A stretch of 64,000 nt of DNA from Escherichia phage HMD-P3, in sequence record PQ462667.1; one strand, given 5' to 3'. A program made the position numbers and the translations under genes. The notes beneath the pieces are model-generated. The model saw only the letters and a list, made by a program, of their open reading frames with translations, was not told where the DNA came from and did not search any database. Of this stretch, positions 224-53,239 are shown piece after piece. Each line of letters starts with the position of its first letter. Position 1 is the first letter of the stretch.

Positions 224-319
224 GATAATAAAACTCCATTAAAGGGATTAAAAAACGTTTGTTATTGGCAATATTGCCAAATATAACGCCTCGAATAATA
301 GGCGTTATAATTTGCAACA

Positions 320-532
320 TTAATTTAAAGGCATCAGGCTAGAACTAACACCACAAACAACGGCGGCAATAAAACAAATCAGACCTAAACGCTTTGCCAG
401 CCTAGATTTACGTTTAAAATAATACGAATCTAAATCATTTTGAAAATATGCGAACAATAGCGAGGCCGCCATAATAAATAAGCCTAGAATCAATGATTCA
501 GTAGGATAAAAGATCATTTTTAAAAACTCCAA
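320..532 (-). CDS. small membrane protein (two hydrophobic segments)
   Basis: 70-aa ORF with hydrophobic stretches; same conserved GGAG leader upstream. Confidence 0.5.
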   Translation of the reverse strand: MEFLKMIFYPTESLILGLFIMAASLLFAYFQNDLDSYYFKRKSRLAKRLGLICFIAAVVCGVSSSLMPLN

Positions 533-6017: not shown

Positions 6018-6180
6018 CGTTCTTAAATGCGAATCATTATCATTCGCATTCCACTTTTTAAATGAGAATCATTCCACTTTCTAAATGAGATTGATTCTCG
6101 TTTCACTTTCTAAATGCGAATTATTATCATTCTCATTCCGCTTTTTAAATGAGAATGATTCTTATTATCATTCGTATTTA
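6018..6180. repeat. about 6 direct or partly palindromic copies of the ctttttaaatgagaatcatt family
   Basis: Copies at about 6023, 6051, 6073, 6098, 6125 and 6143; ORF-free. Confidence 0.7.
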
Positions 6181-25006: not shown

Positions 25007-25234
25007 TTAACATTTCACAGCAGAACGTTTGCCATTTCTAGGTGCACCTGGAAGTCGTGCACGTTCTGCCATTCTTCGCTTAATCTTTGAGATATTTTCT
25101 AGTGTTTGTTCTTCAGGCTTAATACCTGAAACACTACACCACTGATTACCATCCCATGCGGTAATGATCATAACACCATTACCCATAATCTTTTCTGTGA
25201 AAGTAATTCTCATTATAGCAACTCGTCTAAGCAA
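25007..25234 (-). CDS. hypothetical protein
   Basis: 75-aa ORF. Confidence 0.45.
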   Translation of the reverse strand: MLRRVAIMRITFTEKIMGNGVMIITAWDGNQWCSVSGIKPEEQTLENISKIKRRMAERARLPGAPRNGKRSAVKC

Positions 25235-39324: not shown

Positions 39325-39629
39325 TCATATTCAACACGATTGGGATTTTCTTTATACCCTAAGTCAAGCAAATCATTACGCATATTTTGCTTAGCTACTG
39401 GGTTCGAGGTTACTAGTACCACTTTCTTTGGTCTCTGCCCAAATTCTAATAGTAAACGAAGAATTTGATAACCTTCCATACCATCTACAGCCAAGTCATT
39501 ATCCATATAAACGAAATGGCCTGTGGTATCAGTTTTATTCAGAAACTCTACAGCGGCTTCTGGGGTTCGAATGATAATGTCCATTCCGTGAAGATTACGC
39601 ACATCATCAATCAAAATATGAAAAGTCAT
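39312..39629 (-). CDS. hypothetical protein
   Basis: 105-aa ORF with promoter/leader module upstream. Confidence 0.5.
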   Translation of the reverse strand: MTFHILIDDVRNLHGMDIIIRTPEAAVEFLNKTDTTGHFVYMDNDLAVDGMEGYQILRLLLEFGQRPKKVVLVTSNPVAKQNMRNDLLDLGYKENPNRVEYDWQE

Positions 39630-40071
39630 AATAGCCTCGTTTCATCAATTTAAAAATATATTATACATATAATTTAGTAGATTAGCAAATACATTTTTAA
39701 ATTGTGAAACTAGTAAACCGATAAACAGCCTAGAGGCGCCACAGGCCATACCTTATGAGCCATGTACCTTTGATCTAGGGTTTTAATCATCAACGAATAC
39801 TTTGCATCTTTTAGCTTTAGAAGTTTAGAAGTTTGAGTTCTTTAAACTTTTCAGCTTTCATACTTAAATGTTGATCTTTGAAGTTGTGTCGGTAATATCA
39901 ACGACGCTTTGTTTTTACGTGTCAGCTTAAAAGGCTGGTGTAATAAACATAATCTCCAATAGATTATACTTTATAGTATGGTCAGCGGTCCTATTTAACC
40001 TCGTATTTCAACCGCTGCTGCGAGGTAAGATGCTTGGGCTTTCGTCTACCGATTTACTAGCTTTTAAATTA

Positions 40072-42963: not shown

Positions 42964-43440
42964 TTACATCTCAGCCATTTCAGCTTCAGTAATAACTGTA
43001 TTACACAATGCATCTACAGCTTCATTACCACTAATACCAGAATGTCCTTTGACCTTAATAAAGGTAGGGTTAGTGTTATGAAAGTTGATATACTGCTGTG
43101 TTAATTTAAATGCTTCCTGCCAAAGTTCTAGATTAAGAGGAACTTCACCATCTGCTTTCTTCCATCCTTTCCTTTGCCAAGAAAACATCCAACTTTCCAT
43201 GCCATTTTTGCAATAAGCAGAGTCAGTATAGATAGCAATTGGTCTATTATCTTTTTTAACAGACCAACGTAGAGCTTCTACAATAGCTGTGAGTTCCATC
43301 TCATTATTTGTAGTTTTAGGATTATAACCAGATTTAGAACCTAAACGATCGTCGTTATCATCATAGACAATAAAACCCCAAGCACCTGGACCTGGATTAG
43401 ACTTACAAGCACCATCTGTGTAAATGTGGAAAACGCTCAC
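42964..43440 (-). CDS. rnh: ribonuclease H
   Basis: IYTDGAC...TNNEMEL...YTDS...GHSG RNase HI motifs. Confidence 0.85.
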   Translation of the reverse strand: MSVFHIYTDGACKSNPGPGAWGFIVYDDNDDRLGSKSGYNPKTTNNEMELTAIVEALRWSVKKDNRPIAIYTDSAYCKNGMESWMFSWQRKGWKKADGEVPLNLELWQEAFKLTQQYINFHNTNPTFIKVKGHSGISGNEAVDALCNTVITEAEMAEM

Positions 43441-43985
43441 TTATTAAGTTCCTCTACTGGTGGGTAATAGTTGGTATAGAAATCTTCTATAACTGCTTCG
43501 CTACCATGAAGTGTTTTTCTTAGTTCATTAGCCTTTATGACCGCACTTTCTAGATCTAAGTAGTCAAAAACACCCCCGTAAATATTTTTACCATTATTAT
43601 CAATTACCTGTACTTGCCATTTCTGTAGTTGTTTGTTCCAGTGTACACCTAGATATCCAGATTTACTCGATGCGGTACAATTTCTATTATTAGACTGGCT
43701 TGTAGCTTCTCTTAGATTTATCCACCTATTATCTGACCTAATTCTATTTTTGTGGTCTATTAAATCAGGTATTGATCCTGTCATGTATAGAAAGGCTAAC
43801 CTATGTGCTAAATAATCTATTTTATCTATCTTAATAGTTATATAGCCATCTTTTCTTAGGTATCCAGCGGGCGAACCTGCTTTTCCTCCCCTACCACGAC
43901 TCACCTTATTAGTAAATATACCAGTATCTGGATCATAGATTAGTATTTCTTTTAATCTTTCTTGGCTAGGTAGCTTTTTACTCAT
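43437..43985 (-). CDS. HNH homing endonuclease
   Basis: YLAHRLAF...DHKNRIRSDNRWINLR...QSNNRN. Confidence 0.65.
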   Translation of the reverse strand: MSKKLPSQERLKEILIYDPDTGIFTNKVSRGRGGKAGSPAGYLRKDGYITIKIDKIDYLAHRLAFLYMTGSIPDLIDHKNRIRSDNRWINLREATSQSNNRNCTASSKSGYLGVHWNKQLQKWQVQVIDNNGKNIYGGVFDYLDLESAVIKANELRKTLHGSEAVIEDFYTNYYPPVEELNK

Positions 43986-44361
43986 CTAACCATCCTATGT
44001 CTATACTAAGTAGTGCTTTTATTCCTGTAATACCTGTACCATAAGTATTATATCGAATAGCACTTCTGCTCTTTACTTCAAGTATATTTTCATGCTCTGT
44101 ATTTTCTAGAATTTCTGTAGATATACCTAAATATCCTAATTGATCTTCCTCGTCCCAACCCATATCTTCTAGAAGATTTAGACGTAACTCTACCTTCTCA
44201 TCTCCATTTCCTACAGAGTAGTGGTCTTCTAAAGTCCTGAATTTAGAAGTGATAGAATCTAGTATTAATAATACCTGTTCCTTAGTAATAGTTTCTTTAT
44301 CACCCTGTAAGTAATTGGAGTAATTCAGAAGGGCTTGTTCTAATTCAATTTCTTTACTCAT
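43978..44361 (-). CDS. hypothetical acidic protein
   Basis: 127-aa ORF. Confidence 0.5.
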   Translation of the reverse strand: MSKEIELEQALLNYSNYLQGDKETITKEQVLLILDSITSKFRTLEDHYSVGNGDEKVELRLNLLEDMGWDEEDQLGYLGISTEILENTEHENILEVKSRSAIRYNTYGTGITGIKALLSIDIGWLDE

Positions 44362-44374
44362 TTTATTATCCTTT

Positions 44375-44434
44375 TGTACTTATTGAGTATATTATATTTG
44401 AAATTGTACTCAATAAGCGAGTACAATTTCAAAT
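44375..44434. promoter_or_regulatory. nested inverted repeats overlapping a promoter -10 region
   Basis: 16-bp perfect IR atttgaaattgtactc / gagtacaatttcaaat (about 44395-44434) plus 11-bp IR cttattgagta / tactcaataag (about 44379-44417); terminator-like hairpin agccccgaagggct at about 44441. Confidence 0.5.
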
Positions 44435-44460
44435 ATAATAGCCCCGAAGGGCTACTTAAG

Positions 44461-45300
44461 TTAAGAGGACATCTTAGCTTTAAGAGCTGGATGTGGATCA
44501 TATCCTTCCAGCTTGAAAGACCAGGCCGCAGTATTATTCTCTAATAAATCATAAAGATCTACAAATTCTGGCATTACTAGAGCTGGCAAAGGACGTGGTT
44601 TACGTTTCAATTGCTCCTCTACTTGCCCTATATGATCACTATAAATATGTGTATCTCCACCACTAAAGATGAGATAACGAGGTTTTAATCCAGTCAGTTT
44701 TGCTAGGATATGTGTTAGTAAAGCATAACTAGCAATATTGAAAGGTAGACCTAGAAAACAGTCTACAGAACGTTGTGTCCATTTAAGATCTAAGTATCCA
44801 TCATTACTTACGTAACATTGGAAACCATAGTGACACGGTGGTAATGCCATCTTATCCAGTTCAGCTACGTTCCATGCAGATACTAGGTGTCTACGACCAT
44901 GTGGATTATTCTTGAGACCCTCAATGAGTTCTAGGATCTGATCTCGTCCACCAAAGTTGCGCCATTGTTTACCATATACTGGCCCCAGATTACCTCTGTC
45001 ATAACCCATGCTTATGGCTTGGTCTTCATAATTTGGAGTCCAGATAGTCCACTGTCCTTCGTCACGCCCAAATGTGAATACTCGTAGATCATGGAGATTT
45101 GTAGATCCAGATAAAAACCATAGGAGTTCTCCAACTACCGATTTCCAAGCTAGACGTTTAGTGGTTACAGCTGGAAATCCTTCACGTAGATCGAACTTAG
45201 CATAGGAATCGAAAATCGAAACTGTGCCTGTCCCCGTACGATCGTTACGTGGTTCACCTAGTAAAATTACATCTGTTAGAATTTTTAAATATTGTTGCAT
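44461..45300 (-). CDS. thyA: thymidylate synthase
   Basis: PCH active-site cysteine; DCFLGLPFNIASYALL. Confidence 0.9.
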   Translation of the reverse strand: MQQYLKILTDVILLGEPRNDRTGTGTVSIFDSYAKFDLREGFPAVTTKRLAWKSVVGELLWFLSGSTNLHDLRVFTFGRDEGQWTIWTPNYEDQAISMGYDRGNLGPVYGKQWRNFGGRDQILELIEGLKNNPHGRRHLVSAWNVAELDKMALPPCHYGFQCYVSNDGYLDLKWTQRSVDCFLGLPFNIASYALLTHILAKLTGLKPRYLIFSGGDTHIYSDHIGQVEEQLKRKPRPLPALVMPEFVDLYDLLENNTAAWSFKLEGYDPHPALKAKMSS

Positions 45301-49847: not shown

Positions 49848-50541
49848 TCAATTCGATCATTGAGAATGGGGCATTTTCGTATTTCTCATAGACTTCCATA
49901 AGGAGCGCTAGACCTGAGTCACCTTTAATGTCTTTCTGAGCTATATCTCCGCAGATAATTAAACGGCAGTCTTGCCCTACACGAGTTAGGAGACAAATCA
50001 TTGCCTCAACGGAAATATTCTGAGCTTCATCGACAATTACATAGGAGTTGTTGAAAGTTCTGCCACGAGCATGTTCGATAGCCAAAAATTTAATTTTCTG
50101 ACGTTCGACATATCCTTTATATGCATGATCGCCGATGGCCCATTTCATACCATCAGCTATTGGCTCCAACCAAGGCTCTAGCTTTTCCGCTAGATCACCA
50201 GGAAGCATACCAAGAGACTTACCTAGAGGTTCATTAGGACGTACGAGGATCACTTGCTCAATATCTGAGTGAATGTCTACGAGTTCCTGAGCTGCAAGAA
50301 CGGACGGAATAAAGGTTTTACCAGTACCTGGCTCACCTATACCTACAGTCACTGTGTTGTTCTTGATCATATTGATATATGATTTTTGCTCGCGGTTTTT
50401 ACCTACTAGGGATTTAGCAACTGGGTTAGCGTAATCAGTAGAAAAATCAGCCTGAATTACGTTATTCTCATATTTGTTGCCACGCTTTCTTGAACCATTG
50501 CGGTTCTCTCTTTTTTGACGTGCTTTTCCCATAAATAACAC
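49780..50541 (-). CDS. phoH: PhoH-like ATPase
   Basis: Walker A GEPGTGKTF; PhoH-like size and layout. Confidence 0.8.
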   Translation of the reverse strand: MLFMGKARQKRENRNGSRKRGNKYENNVIQADFSTDYANPVAKSLVGKNREQKSYINMIKNNTVTVGIGEPGTGKTFIPSVLAAQELVDIHSDIEQVILVRPNEPLGKSLGMLPGDLAEKLEPWLEPIADGMKWAIGDHAYKGYVERQKIKFLAIEHARGRTFNNSYVIVDEAQNISVEAMICLLTRVGQDCRLIICGDIAQKDIKGDSGLALLMEVYEKYENAPFSMIELIDNVRSVESKAFYDIFKDMGKV

Positions 50542-50605
50542 TCCTATAGTGTACTTCGCTAACAGAGGATCAACAAAAAGATCTTGTTTATCAACTTACA
50601 AATAT

Positions 50606-50634
50606 ATTATACCAATATATACAGTAAAAAGCAA
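50606..50634 (-). promoter_or_regulatory. T5-type promoter (TTGCTT-N17-TATAAT) for phoH
   Basis: Minus-strand reading: ttgctttttactgtatatattggtataat. Confidence 0.55.
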
Positions 50635-50826
50635 CTACAATTTTAAATAAGCCTATGATATTGCATTTAAATAAAAAATTTGCTTGCTTTTAACGTGAGA
50701 TGTGTGATACTAGATAATCATTTTATATCGCGTGCACGAGTGCGTGATTATACAATTTTTAATAGAGATTGGCAAATAAAATTTTTTGACTCAGATCATG
50801 TTACAGAACTTTATAGTAAAATATTG

Positions 50827-50855
50827 TTGACATCCGCCCTCGAATGAGTTATAAT
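50827..50855 (+). promoter_or_regulatory. consensus sigma70 promoter (TTGACA-N17-TATAAT) for nrdD
   Basis: ttgacatccgccctcgaatgagttataat, 30 nt upstream of the ATG. Confidence 0.7.
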
Positions 50856-50884
50856 AGTAGTCTTAGTTAGAGAAGGAGAGTATA

Positions 50885-52759
50885 ATGAATCGCAATGAAG
50901 AACTAAAGTATAAAGAAATGCAGGCGTTAATTAGAAACTGCAAAGAGATTATCGAAGGGTCAGCAGATGAAGAGCTGCTGTTTAATAATGCTAATAAACC
51001 CTCAGAACGTTTCCCTACACAAAGGGATATGCTTGCAGGTGAATTGAGTAAGTATCTGATTCTAGAAGAAATGCCAATTCAGATTCGAAATGCTCATATG
51101 ATTGGGGATATTCATTTCCATGATGCTGATTATGCTGCATTAGGCATGACTAACTGTTGTCTGGTAGCTCTGGAAGATATGCTGAAGAATGGTATGAAGG
51201 TTGGTAATGCTGAAATTAGCACTCCAAACTCTATCACTACTGCGGCGGCTATTACTGCTCAGATTATCACTCAGGTTAGCTCTCATCAGTATGGTGGTAC
51301 TTCTGTAGATCGCCTTGATGAAGTATTAGCCCCTTATGTTCGTAAATCCTATGACAAAAATCATGCGTTTGCAAAACGTTGGACTAAGGATGAAGCCAAA
51401 GCATCAGTAATGGCTACGGAGATGACTGAAAAGGAAGTCTATGATGCCTGTCAGGGTCTAGAGTATGAAATCAATACGATGTTCAACTCTAACGGTCAGA
51501 GTCCATTTATTACCTTTGGTTTTGGTCTAGGAACTTCTTGGGAAGCACGTCTAGTACAGAAAGCAATACTGAAAGTACGCATGGATGGTTTAGGTATCAA
51601 TAAACGTACAGCTATCTTCCCGAAACTGGTATTTGTACTTCGTGATGGAGTAAATATGAAACCAGGAGATGTTAATTATGACATCAAGAAGTTAGCTATG
51701 AAATGTACTGCTGAACGTATGTATCCAGACTATATCAGCTATGATAAGGTTGTGGAAGTTACTGGGGACTACAAAGTTTCTATGGGTTGTCGTTCATTCC
51801 TAGCTGCTACAGAAGATGGTGAAACTGCCGGTCGTAATAACTTAGGTGTTGTTTCTGTAAACTTGCCTAGAATTGCTATCGAAGCTGAAGGAAATATTGA
51901 CCTATTCTTTGATTTGCTTGAGCTACGTGTAGATACAGCGTTAAAAGCGTTGGAGTGGAGAGTTGATCGCTTAAAATACATTCAAGCTAAAGCTGCACCC
52001 ATCCTGTATATGTCAGGAGCCTTTGGACTGCGCTTGGAGCCTGATGAATATGTATTCGATCATTTCTATAACCGTGCTTCTGTATCTCTAGGGTATATTG
52101 GTTGCCATGAAATGCTACAGTTTATGTTTGGCAAAGATGTAGACACAATGTCCGAGACCTGCATCAAGTTTGTTCAGCGTGTATTGCAGTACATGCGGGA
52201 TAGAGTCGATCAGAAGAAGGAAGAAACTAAATTAGGTTATAGCCTGTATGCTACACCATCAGAATCCCTATGTGACCGTTTTTGTCGTCTAGACCGTGAA
52301 TATTTCCCAGAGCATGAAGATATTCTGTCCAAAGGATACTACACTAACTCGCACCACCTTGATGTAGAACGTAAAGTTGCTCCCAATGTGAAATTTGATT
52401 ATGAATCTAACTTTACTCCGATTGCTTCTGGTGGGTGCATTTCCTATGTAGAACTACCGGATATGAAACGATTCCCAGATGCACTGGAATGGGTTATTAA
52501 TTATGCTGCTAGTAAGGTTCATTACTTCGGTATTAATACCCCAGTGGATTCTTGTGGTAAATGTGGATTCTTAGGTGAAACAATAGCATCCGAAGATGGA
52601 TTTAAGTGCCCTATCTGTGGTAATCATGACCCCGAAACTCTTGAAGTAACTCGTCGAGTTTGTGGGTATCTTGGAAATCCGGGTGCTCGTCCATTTAACC
52701 CCGGCAAACAGCACGAGGTGATGGGCAGAGTGAAGCATCAGGATATTCGAGCTAAGTAA
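50885..52759 (+). CDS. nrdD: anaerobic ribonucleoside-triphosphate reductase (class III)
   Basis: C-terminal glycyl-radical motif RVCGYLG and Zn ribbon CGKCGF...CPICG. Confidence 0.9.
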   Translation: MNRNEELKYKEMQALIRNCKEIIEGSADEELLFNNANKPSERFPTQRDMLAGELSKYLILEEMPIQIRNAHMIGDIHFHDADYAALGMTNCCLVALEDMLKNGMKVGNAEISTPNSITTAAAITAQIITQVSSHQYGGTSVDRLDEVLAPYVRKSYDKNHAFAKRWTKDEAKASVMATEMTEKEVYDACQGLEYEINTMFNSNGQSPFITFGFGLGTSWEARLVQKAILKVRMDGLGINKRTAIFPKLVFVLRDGVNMKPGDVNYDIKKLAMKCTAERMYPDYISYDKVVEVTGDYKVSMGCRSFLAATEDGETAGRNNLGVVSVNLPRIAIEAEGNIDLFFDLLELRVDTALKALEWRVDRLKYIQAKAAPILYMSGAFGLRLEPDEYVFDHFYNRASVSLGYIGCHEMLQFMFGKDVDTMSETCIKFVQRVLQYMRDRVDQKKEETKLGYSLYATPSESLCDRFCRLDREYFPEHEDILSKGYYTNSHHLDVERKVAPNVKFDYESNFTPIASGGCISYVELPDMKRFPDALEWVINYAASKVHYFGINTPVDSCGKCGFLGETIASEDGFKCPICGNHDPETLEVTRRVCGYLGNPGARPFNPGKQHEVMGRVKHQDIRAK

Positions 52760-52801
52760 GCTAATCAGCCGGGTTGCTAGTCGACCTGGCTTTTATTTTA
52801 T

Positions 52802-52830
52802 TTGCTTTCAGCCAAAAATTTATATATAAT
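52802..52830 (+). promoter_or_regulatory. T5-type promoter (TTGCTT-N17-TATAAT) with conserved leader
   Basis: tttgctttcagccaaaaatttatatataat, then agatttataaatttgagaggag-ATG. Confidence 0.6.
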
Positions 52831-52858
52831 AGATTTATAAATTTGAGAGGAGAAAGAT

Positions 52859-53239
52859 ATGGAATTAAAGCCCTATATAGTTGAATCTACATGTGGTAGT
52901 TTCCATCTGGGTGTGGATAATATTGCTGAGGCTGTCTTTGCTGCTACAGGTGATTACTCGCATATAGAGGGTGTTGCATACCCTACCATTATTGGCGATT
53001 GGGTGGGAACAAATCTAGATGTATCGCCTTATAACCCATATTGCTTGTTTGATGAAGACAGAGATGAAGTAAAATGTAATCTTGAATTTGTGTATAATAG
53101 AGTGTTAAAAGTGTACCAACGTAGCCCCAATGGGTACGAAGATATTACTTGGAGTATTAAACAGTATCTTAAAGATATATACTCTAGTTTTTCTGACGAA
53201 GACCTAGAAACAGTTGCAGTGGAGTTTAATAATGACTAA
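52859..53239 (+). CDS. hypothetical acidic protein
   Basis: 126-aa ORF behind the promoter/leader module. Confidence 0.55.
   Translation: MELKPYIVESTCGSFHLGVDNIAEAVFAATGDYSHIEGVAYPTIIGDWVGTNLDVSPYNPYCLFDEDRDEVKCNLEFVYNRVLKVYQRSPNGYEDITWSIKQYLKDIYSSFSDEDLETVAVEFNND

What the first reader, a model, noticed from the sequence alone, without database searches (positions are those of the whole stretch)
44375..44460. Nested perfect inverted repeats overlapping a promoter between thyA and the upstream gene
A 16-bp perfect inverted repeat (atttgaaattgtactc / gagtacaatttcaaat) and an 11-bp repeat (cttattgagta / tactcaataag) interlock around the -10 region of the promoter for 43978..44361, followed by a GC hairpin (agccccgaagggct) just downstream of the thyA stop. 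This could be an operator for a dimeric repressor, an RNase III processing hairpin separating the nucleotide-metabolism operon from downstream genes, or a terminator.
Basis: seen in the sequence. Interest (0 to 1): 0.45.

Follow-up and report, generated by a model that had tools for sequence, protein, structure and literature searches.

The report
Terminator-promoter cassette with conserved long hairpin
The palindromes are real and lie in a roughly 75-bp regulatory cassette of a T5-like phage, made of a terminator ending the thymidylate-synthase operon and an early promoter folded inside a conserved 22-bp hairpin; it is an ordinary kind of element with one unusual feature.

Summary
The window is a T5-like phage, 98.6% identical to phage fp01 over the 801-bp query around the finding. 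All genes here are on the - strand, so ORF127 lies downstream of thyA, not upstream.

The inverted repeat is 22 bp and perfect, not 16 bp (44419-44440 / 44390-44411, 7-nt loop). Shuffled windows reach at most 15 bp.

Ten bases after the thyA stop lies a GC-rich UUCG-loop hairpin with a U-rich tail. This is an intrinsic terminator. It abuts the long hairpin.

The long hairpin encloses a T5-type sigma-70 early promoter. This promoter is the homologue of the one annotated "T5P27" in the T5 genome record:
- -35 TCGCTT, in the loop
- 18-nt spacer
- -10 TATAAT, at the base of the 3' arm
- ATACT discriminator

About 424 Tequintavirus and Epseptimavirus records match this region. The sampled loci show four upstream and six downstream gene contexts.

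Both hairpins keep pairing through compensatory substitutions and paired indels. Wobble pairs favour the sense RNA.

The 11-bp repeat is real but not conserved. An operator is unlikely. RNase III cleavage, cruciform formation and neutral palindrome maintenance remain open.

The closest analogue is the T4 "PeSL" promoter/stem-loop cassette. Interest is modest.

The parts
44461..44463 (-). thyA stop codon (TAA). This is the end of the nrdA-nrdB-frd-thyA gene run, all on the - strand.
   Evidence: ORF list; sequence
44437..44456 (-). Terminator hairpin T1. Core AGCCC-UUCG-GGGCU is 44453-44440. It extends to 8 bp (AGUAGCCC/GGGCUAUU) at -12.2 kcal/mol and is followed by an interrupted U-rich tail (AUAUUU).
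   Evidence: The RNAalifold consensus gives an 8-bp stem. Covariation: C-G to G-C at one pair, and A-U / G.U / G-C at the closing pair. ARNold predicted it in the BF23 record. The simple terminator scan did not flag it.
44419..44440 (-). 5' arm of the 22-bp hairpin (sense TATTATATTTGAAATTGTACTC). [quoted passage not shown]
44415..44420 (-). -35 hexamer TCGCTT, straddling the stem top and the loop GCUUAUU (44412-44418). It is TTGCTT in all 20 other unique cassettes.
   Evidence: TTGCTT is the -35 in most of the other T5-type promoters in the window.
44390..44411 (-). 3' arm of the 22-bp hairpin (sense GAGTACAATTTCAAATATAATA). It equals the promoter spacer plus the -10 element.
44391..44396 (-). 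-10 hexamer TATAAT, 18 nt after the -35. It is followed by the discriminator ATACT (44386-44390). The inferred transcription start is near 44383-44384.
   Evidence: Klimuk et al. 2020 (PMC7472727) report that identified T5 early promoters carry an ATATT discriminator. The T5 record places 'putative early promoter T5P27' here. The start site is inferred, not mapped.
44379..44389 (-). Downstream copy of the 11-bp repeat (sense TACTCAATAAG). It is complementary to loop plus 3' arm top at 44407-44417. It lies in the discriminator/leader of ORF127, at the left edge of the segment absent from T5.
   Evidence: It is not conserved: 9-10 of 11 in other ORF127-bearing phages and absent with other downstream genes.
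44359..44373 (-). Shine-Dalgarno AAGGA (44369-44373) and ATG (44359-44361) of ORF127
43441..44387 (-). ORF127 (phrog_26840, function unknown) plus an HNH endonuclease. This is a replacement relative to T5, where rnh follows the cassette directly. The junction falls exactly after ...TATAATATA.

Best explanation
The finding is one compact regulatory cassette of about 75 bp, read on the - strand. It is conserved in T5-like phages of the genera Tequintavirus and Epseptimavirus.

(1) A GC-rich hairpin with a UUCG tetraloop and a U-rich tail terminates early transcription of the nrdA-nrdB-frd-thyA block.

(2) Immediately after it, a T5-type sigma-70 early promoter restarts transcription for the downstream genes. 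It is the homologue of the annotated T5P27: -35 T(T/C)GCTT, 17/18-nt spacer, -10 TATAAT, ATATT/ATACT discriminator.

(3) Unusually, the region upstream of the -35 is the exact complement of the spacer plus -10. The promoter therefore sits inside a 21-23 bp A/U-rich hairpin with the -35 in its loop. This stem appears to be maintained as a structure.

The full hairpin is transcribed only by polymerases that read through the first terminator, because the promoter's own transcripts start 3' of it. The wobble pairs favour the sense RNA. Its most likely role is therefore on read-through RNA: a back-up terminator or insulator, and a 3' stem that separates upstream from downstream expression.

The conserved cassette also serves as the homology patch at which flanking gene modules are exchanged.

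Shown: the anatomy, conservation, covariation and mosaic contexts. Inferred: termination, promoter activity, the start site and the RNA-level role.
For: Identity and context:
- The window is a T5-like phage with all local genes on the - strand.
- The same spot is annotated 'putative early promoter T5P27' in T5, 'terminator' in Lindwurm and Shivani, and both terminator and promoter in BF23.

Promoter:
- TTGCTT-17/18-TATAAT is present in all 21 unique cassettes. The palindrome-derived TTGAAA-18-TACAAT is not.
- It belongs to a family of 13-14 T5-type promoters in the window.
- It carries the early-promoter discriminator described by Klimuk et al. 2020.

Structure:
- 98.2% of pair cells form standard pairs, against 32-48% when partners are slid.
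- Five pairs change on both sides, and 0 of 500 shuffles reach the observed covariation score.
- RNAalifold independently returns the two adjacent hairpins.
- 1-nt indels occur in both arms together.

Strand:
- Sense RNA folds better than antisense in 17 of 19 unique hairpins, mean -18.1 against -14.4 kcal/mol.
- One-sided changes give G.U on the sense strand at 8-9 positions and A.C at 3-4.

Specificity:
- Of 14 T5-type promoters in the window, only this one is structured (z = -7.8; the others range from -1.0 to +1.2).

Conservation and mosaicism:
- 424 phage records match the region. In Epseptimavirus only the cassette aligns, not the flanks.
- Three hairpin types combine with 4 upstream and 6 downstream contexts, with junctions at the cassette edges.
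Against: - I found no experimental 5' or 3' end mapping for this region. Termination and initiation rest on sequence only.
- The simple terminator scan did not flag the GC hairpin. Its U-tract is interrupted (AUUAUAUUU).
- The long stem has an all-A/U base, which is poor for intrinsic termination. The U-run after it is present in only 3 of the 6 downstream contexts, and there it coincides with the promoter's own discriminator consensus.
- The G.U versus A.C bias is modest: roughly 11-12 events against 4-5, for an approximate binomial p of 0.04-0.1. Event counts are by eye, not phylogeny-aware.
- The sequences are closely related, so shuffle controls overstate significance.
- Template-switch 'correction' within quasi-palindromes can produce compensatory-looking changes without selection for function.
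Confidence: 0.55

Rival explanations
1. The long hairpin is an RNase III processing site. Read-through transcripts form a perfect dsRNA of about 22 bp (two helical turns). Host RNase III cleaves it, separating the nucleotide-metabolism mRNA from the downstream message, as happens between T7 early genes.
For: Stem length stays at 19-23 bp across all variants, despite paired indels. This length is atypically long for a terminator and matches the canonical minimal RNase III substrate (established knowledge). The structure is favoured on the sense RNA. The element lies between cistrons.
Against: The literature search found no report of RNase III processing of T5 mRNAs. T7-type sites usually carry internal loops. 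Only transcripts that escape the first terminator would contain the substrate. RNase III sequence determinants were not tested.
Confidence: 0.15
2. The palindrome acts at the DNA level. Under negative supercoiling the AT-rich inverted repeat extrudes as a cruciform and removes the -10 and upstream region from duplex form. This would make the promoter supercoil- or transcription-sensitive, as in the engineered promoter of Horwitz and Loeb 1988 (recalled from memory, not checked here).
For: The palindrome spans the promoter precisely, from about -59 to -6, with the -35 in the loop. It is AT-rich with a short loop. Complementarity is conserved. Perfect 22-bp versions occur in several phages.
Against: A DNA cruciform needs both strands to pair, so G.T and A.C states should be equally tolerated, yet G.U on the sense strand predominates. 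Many variants carry 2-4 non-Watson-Crick positions, which penalise extrusion. A 51-bp element is short for extrusion in vivo.
Confidence: 0.1
3. There is no regulatory role for the long stem. It is a self-perpetuating quasi-palindrome, kept symmetrical by intramolecular template switching or gene conversion during replication. It persists because it overlaps an essential promoter, and its hairpin-prone DNA makes it a recombination hotspot.
For: Junctions of gene-content differences fall exactly at the cassette edges. The window's private T-to-C change perfects the stem while weakening the -35, as expected from palindrome 'correction'. The 11-bp repeat looks like an inverted partial copy of the stem top.
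Against: Two genera retain a full-length stem through several different substitutions and indels, while 13 sister promoters show no such structure. The sense-strand wobble bias is not predicted by a purely mutational process.
Confidence: 0.12
4. The palindrome is an operator. A dimeric phage or host repressor binds the two half-sites and occludes the promoter.
For: There is perfect dyad symmetry over the -10 and upstream region in this phage.
Against: The half-site sequence is not conserved: G-C to A-T, G-C to T-A and T-A to C-G swaps occur, with 1-nt indels in both arms and frequent one-sided G.T asymmetry. The loop containing the -35 is asymmetric. None of the 13 sister early promoters has a similar site. 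The adjacent ORF127 matches only an unknown-function family and has no DNA-binding family hit.
Confidence: 0.05

Closest known systems
PeSL (promoter-early stem-loop) cassettes of T4-type phages (Arbiol et al. 2010, PMC2839356; Comeau et al. 2014, PMC4122927)
   Same: [quoted passage not shown] Both have a strong sigma-70-type early promoter with an AT-rich upstream region. Both have a stem-loop placed upstream of, or overlapping, the promoter boxes and acting as a terminator or attenuator. Both sit at points where closely related phages differ by insertion, deletion or replacement of small genes.
   Different: The phage family differs (Demerecviridae siphoviruses, not T4-like myoviruses). This cassette has two stem-loops: a GC-rich terminator and a second 22-bp A/U-rich stem that encloses the whole core promoter. 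The long hairpin is single-copy per genome, whereas PeSLs number about 50. PeSL stems are typically GGGG...CCCC. Minicircle formation was not tested.
Intrinsic (Rho-independent) terminator followed by a re-initiation promoter, as annotated in T5-like genomes (T5P27 in AY587007; terminator and promoter in BF23 OR083247)
   Same: Position and sequence are homologous to those annotated features. The GC hairpin, UUCG loop and U-rich tail fit the class.
   Different: Those annotations are predictions. They treat the site as either a promoter or a terminator. None records that the promoter is embedded in a covarying 21-23 bp stem.
RNase III processing hairpins between T7 early genes
   Same: Both are intercistronic hairpins of about two helical turns on the sense transcript of an early operon.
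   Different: T7 sites have internal loops and their cleavage has been mapped experimentally. Here the stem is fully paired, overlaps a promoter, follows a terminator, and has no cleavage data.

Membership tests
Intrinsic (Rho-independent) terminator (GC hairpin, 44437-44456) | GC-rich stem of about 5-14 bp with a 3-8 nt loop, shortly after a stop codon | tested here: met
   AGCCC-UUCG-GGGCU, extendable to 8 bp, -12.2 kcal/mol. The core stem starts 8 nt after the TAA.
Intrinsic (Rho-independent) terminator (GC hairpin, 44437-44456) | U-tract immediately 3' of the stem | tested here: inconclusive
   The tail AUUAUAUUU has 6 U in 9 but is interrupted. The simple scan did not call it. ARNold called the homologous site in the BF23 record.
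Intrinsic (Rho-independent) terminator (GC hairpin, 44437-44456) | Transcript 3' ends at the U-tract in vivo or in vitro | not testable with these tools
   I found no 3'-end mapping for T5-like phages.
T5-type sigma-70 early promoter | -35 TTGCTT/TTGACA-like, 17+/-1 nt spacer, -10 TATAAT | tested here: met
   TCGCTT-18-TATAAT in the window. TTGCTT-17/18-TATAAT in the 20 other unique cassettes.
T5-type sigma-70 early promoter | ATATT discriminator after the -10 (Klimuk et al. 2020) and an AT-rich upstream region | tested here: met
   ATACT in the window (4 of 5), ATATT in T5 and in type-B cassettes, and an AT-rich 5' arm.
T5-type sigma-70 early promoter | Mapped transcription start or RNA polymerase binding | not testable with these tools
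   It is only a 'putative' annotation in AY587007.
PeSL mobile regulatory cassette (T4-type phages) | Early promoter plus adjacent or overlapping stem-loop in an intergenic spacer | tested here: met
   Definition taken from PMC2839356.
PeSL mobile regulatory cassette (T4-type phages) | Associated with insertion, deletion or replacement of small genes between related phages | tested here: met
   4 upstream and 6 downstream contexts joined at the cassette edges.
PeSL mobile regulatory cassette (T4-type phages) | Many repeated copies per genome, clustered in hyperplastic regions | tested here: not met
   The hairpin arm occurs once in the window. The 13 sister promoters lack any stem. Only the promoter consensus is repeated.
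PeSL mobile regulatory cassette (T4-type phages) | Recombination between cassettes yields minicircles | not testable with these tools
   This is an experimental criterion (inverse PCR).
RNase III substrate | About 20 bp or more of uninterrupted dsRNA on a real transcript | tested here: met
   22 bp here and 19-23 bp in all variants. It is present only on read-through RNA, which is inferred.
RNase III substrate | Permissive proximal/distal box base pairs and demonstrated cleavage | not tested
   No determinant scoring or cleavage data were available.
Operator of a dimeric repressor | Conserved half-site sequence with fixed spacing, plus a cognate DNA-binding protein | tested here: not met
   Half-sites change by compensatory swaps and paired indels. 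No candidate binding protein lies nearby.
Described RNA family (Rfam 15) | Match at or above a family's gathering score | tested here: not met
   Only miRNA-precursor-like noise at 16-26 bits, against thresholds of 60-230 bits.

The most novel reading that the evidence does not exclude
The promoter-enclosing hairpin is a conserved structural switch rather than a passive stem. It would couple the fate of read-through transcription from the nucleotide-metabolism operon to the activity of the downstream early promoter, either by RNase III cleavage or termination on RNA, or by cruciform extrusion on DNA. The same palindrome would also be the hairpin-prone linker at which Tequintavirus and Epseptimavirus exchange gene modules. 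That would make it a T5-family counterpart of the T4 PeSL system.
Probability: 0.15. Interest if true: 0.55.

Novelty: new member of a known kind. Interest (0 to 1): 0.3.

Why it matters
T5 early promoters are among the strongest known E. coli promoters and are widely used in expression vectors, yet how T5 insulates adjacent early transcription units is poorly mapped.

This cassette is a compact natural terminator-promoter insulator. It has an extra stem supported by covariation and is conserved in hundreds of phages used for therapy and biocontrol. It also marks the exact junction where gene modules, including a homing-endonuclease cassette, are swapped.

If the stem has a function, it would be a simple and testable case of a promoter built inside an RNA or DNA structure. 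It would also extend the PeSL idea of regulatory cassettes as recombination linkers beyond T4-like phages. If it has no function, this remains a routine intergenic terminator/promoter already predicted in GenBank annotations.

Tried and rejected
- A metagenome scan with the 14-mer GGGCTATTATATTT returned 120 unrelated chance matches and no T5-like locus.
- ThyA-based locus retrieval gave only 17 T5-like contigs. The remaining hits had ThyA identity of 54% or less, and the five I examined lack the cassette.
- A pattern scan of viral contigs added only two new cassette variants, plus two chance hits (L224, L226).
- Second copy in the genome: rejected. The '2 places' reported by BLAST are the palindrome matching itself.
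- Hairpins as a general property of T5 early promoters: rejected. The 13 other promoters have z between -1.0 and +1.2.
- The TTGAAA-18-TACAAT promoter on both strands, and an antisense RNA: rejected as conserved features, because they are absent from hairpin types B and C.
- Replication origin: nothing happens in cumulative GC skew at 44.4 kb. The minimum is near 50 kb, where transcription diverges.
- Known RNA family: none.
- Literature searches for T5 transcript-end mapping or RNase III processing found nothing relevant.
- The 11-bp repeat as an alternative-pairing switch: rejected, because the pairing is not conserved and the promoter's own transcripts would lack the upstream partner.

Full report
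**What is there**

The window is a T5-like phage. Over the 801-bp query around the finding the best match is Escherichia phage fp01 at 98.6%, and all listed hits are T5-like coliphages or Salmonella phages.

All genes around the finding are on the - strand. Running from high to low coordinates they are nrdA, nrdB, frd, thyA (44461-45300), ORF127 (43978-44361), an HNH endonuclease (43437-43985) and rnh (42964-43440). The finding is therefore the spacer downstream of thyA, 44362-44460, read right to left.

On the sense strand the spacer reads as follows:
- TAA, the thyA stop
- CTTAAGT
- AGCCC-TTCG-GGGCT
- ATTATATTTGAAATTGTACTC
- GCTTATT
- GAGTACAATTTCAAATATAATA
- TACTCAATAAG
- TACAAAAGGATAATAAA
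- ATG

**Checking the observation**

It is the longest perfect hairpin repeat in the window. Forty dinucleotide shuffles of the window gave maxima of 9-15 bp. The arm sequence is unique in the window.

The 11-bp repeat and the GC hairpin are also exact.

The 121-nt region folds with z = -8 on the sense strand and z = -9.7 on the antisense strand. In this phage the palindrome is perfect, so the fold alone cannot tell the strands apart.

**The promoter**

The simple scan reports TTGAAA-18-TACAAT on both strands. That is a by-product of the symmetry.

Scanning the window for the T5 early-promoter architecture found a tight family of about 13 sites, mostly on the - strand. The pattern searched was a TTGCTT- or TTGACA-like -35, a TATAAT-like -10 and an ATATT-like discriminator. 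The family includes a PN25-like site on the + strand.

The site in the finding is TCGCTT (44420-44415), an 18-nt spacer, TATAAT (44396-44391) and ATACT.

Klimuk et al. 2020 state that all identified T5 early promoters carry ATATT in the discriminator (PMC7472727). T5 itself has TTGCTT-18-TATAAT-ATATT at the homologous place, and its record annotates 'putative early promoter T5P27' there.

Across 21 unique cassettes, TTGCTT-17/18-TATAAT is universal. The TTGAAA/TACAAT pair, on either strand, exists only in one hairpin type. The conserved promoter therefore has its -35 across the stem top and loop, and its -10 at the base of the 3' arm.

The window is the only sequence with TCGCTT. That T-to-C change completes the stem but weakens the -35.

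**The terminator**

The GC hairpin extends to 8 bp (AGUAGCCC/GGGCUAUU, -12.2 kcal/mol) and is followed by AUAUUU.

It is conserved with a C-G to G-C swap in phage NR01. Its closing pair occurs as A-U, G.U or G-C.

The BF23 record carries an ARNold terminator prediction on it. Lindwurm and Shivani instead annotate the long hairpin as the terminator. The simple scan missed it, and its U-tract is interrupted. I therefore treat termination as likely but unproven.

**Comparative evidence for the long stem**

I collected 60 T5-like loci, which gave 24 distinct T5-like cassette sequences. The structural counts below use 21-22 of them.

There are three hairpin types:
- Type A: ...TTTGAAATTGTAC...
- Type B: ...TTTAAATTTCAT...
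- Type C: ...TTTAAAATTTCAT...

They differ by G-C to A-T, G-C to T-A and T-A to C-G double substitutions. They also differ by C-G to U.G to U-A series and by 1-nt indels present in both arms.

On the 22-sequence alignment:
- 98.2% of cells pair, against 32-48% when partners are slid.
- Five pairs change on both sides.
- No shuffle out of 500 reaches the observed covariation score.
- RNAalifold independently predicts the two adjacent hairpins.

None of the other 13 promoters of the family shows above-chance structure. Their z values run from -1.0 to +1.2, against -7.8 here. The stem is therefore not a by-product of the promoter consensus.

**RNA or DNA?**

Sense RNA folds better than antisense in 17 of 19 unique hairpins, mean -18.1 against -14.4 kcal/mol.

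One-sided changes give G.U on the sense strand at 8-9 positions. They give A.C at 3-4 positions. One apparent C.A in NR01 actually completes a G-C pair in the terminator stem.

This favours a sense-strand RNA structure. The approximate binomial p is only 0.04-0.1, and events were counted by eye.

The promoter's own transcripts should start near 44383-44384, 3' of the stem. Only read-through transcripts from thyA would therefore contain the stem. This is the basis for proposing a back-up terminator or insulator role. RNase III cleavage is the main RNA-level alternative: a 22-bp stem is two helical turns, and its length is conserved at 19-23 bp.

**Conservation and mosaicism**

A 156-nt query matched 424 phage records. 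In Epseptimavirus only window positions 44386-44463 align, and the flanks do not.

In Sepoy and YZU-L1 the cassette follows an extra 117-aa gene rather than thyA, and it precedes different genes.

The three hairpin types combine with four upstream and six downstream contexts. The junctions lie just before AATAGCCC and exactly after TATAATATA.

Relative to T5, the window has ORF127 plus HNH (43441-44387) in place of about 65 bp of spacer.

This is the behaviour described for T4 PeSL cassettes: an early promoter plus stem-loop that acts as a terminator and lies at sites of module shuffling (PMC2839356). The long hairpin, however, is single-copy, and this is a different phage family. It is an analogue, not a member.

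**The 11-bp repeat**

Its downstream copy lies in the leader of ORF127. Complementarity to the loop and stem top is 11 of 11 only here and in fp01. It is 9-10 of 11 in other ORF127-bearing phages and is lost with other downstream genes.

It is unlikely by chance in this window, but it is not conserved. It looks like an inverted partial copy of the stem top (GTACTT[GCTT]ATTGAGTAC). I assign it no function.

**Other readings**

- Operator: disfavoured by the covariation pattern and the asymmetric loop. No similar site exists elsewhere, and no DNA-binding neighbour was found.
- Cruciform switch: possible, but disfavoured by the strand-asymmetric wobble pattern.
- Neutral quasi-palindrome kept symmetrical by template switching: cannot be excluded, and would explain the window's private 'correcting' mutation.
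- Origin of replication: no skew signal here.
- Known RNA family: none.

**Verdict**

The element is a conserved terminator-promoter cassette already predicted piecemeal in public annotations. The new detail is that the promoter is enclosed in a 21-23 bp stem supported by covariation, and that this stem marks recombination junctions. Interest is modest, and function awaits end mapping and stem mutagenesis.

Noticed in passing
window 43441-44387: ORF127 (phrog_26840, unknown function, very acidic) plus an HNH endonuclease replace about 65 bp of T5 spacer between the cassette and rnh. The HNH stop overlaps a GTG start of rnh, where T5 has ATG. This looks like a free-standing homing-endonuclease cassette next to thyA.
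   Followed up: partly
window - strand: 50611, 42569, 40992, 39665, 38143, 34302, 33747, 29476, 23459, 21333, 16772; + strand: 52825, 59419 (coordinate of the first base of the -10): A tight family of T5-type early promoters. The pattern is AAAAATTnATTTGCT[T/A], a 17-nt spacer, TATAAT, ATATT, then nATAAATTGAG. The 59419 site is nearly identical to the classic PN25 promoter (identity recalled from memory). Several follow a GC hairpin directly, for example 52825 and 21333, so terminator-promoter cassettes are common here.
   Followed up: partly
window about 50000-52900: The cumulative GC skew minimum lies here, together with divergent promoters at 50611 (-) and 52825 (+). This marks the switch of transcription direction in the window.
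   Followed up: no
window 44419-44420: This phage alone, among 21 unique cassettes, has TCGCTT instead of TTGCTT. The change turns a U.G into a C-G at the stem top but weakens the -35. It is the pattern expected from quasi-palindrome 'correction'.
   Followed up: partly
window 270-321, 1360-1413, 6113-6172, 25020-25069: Other long but imperfect inverted repeats, 22-29 nt arms at 79-86% complementarity. The one at 270-321 contains TATAAT- and TTGCAA-like motifs.
   Followed up: no
window 39600-39690 (- strand): In a 95-nt fold, the promoter at 39665 pairs CAATTTAAAAATGTAT with ATATATTTTTAAATTG across the whole promoter (-21.2 kcal/mol). This was not seen when only the region from -62 to -5 was folded.
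   Followed up: partly
L205 (Sepoy) 1574-1927; L212 (SCF) 480-833: Some Epseptimavirus phages carry an extra 117-aa 'membrane protein' gene between thyA and the cassette. The cassette therefore marks the end of the operon rather than the end of thyA itself.
   Followed up: partly
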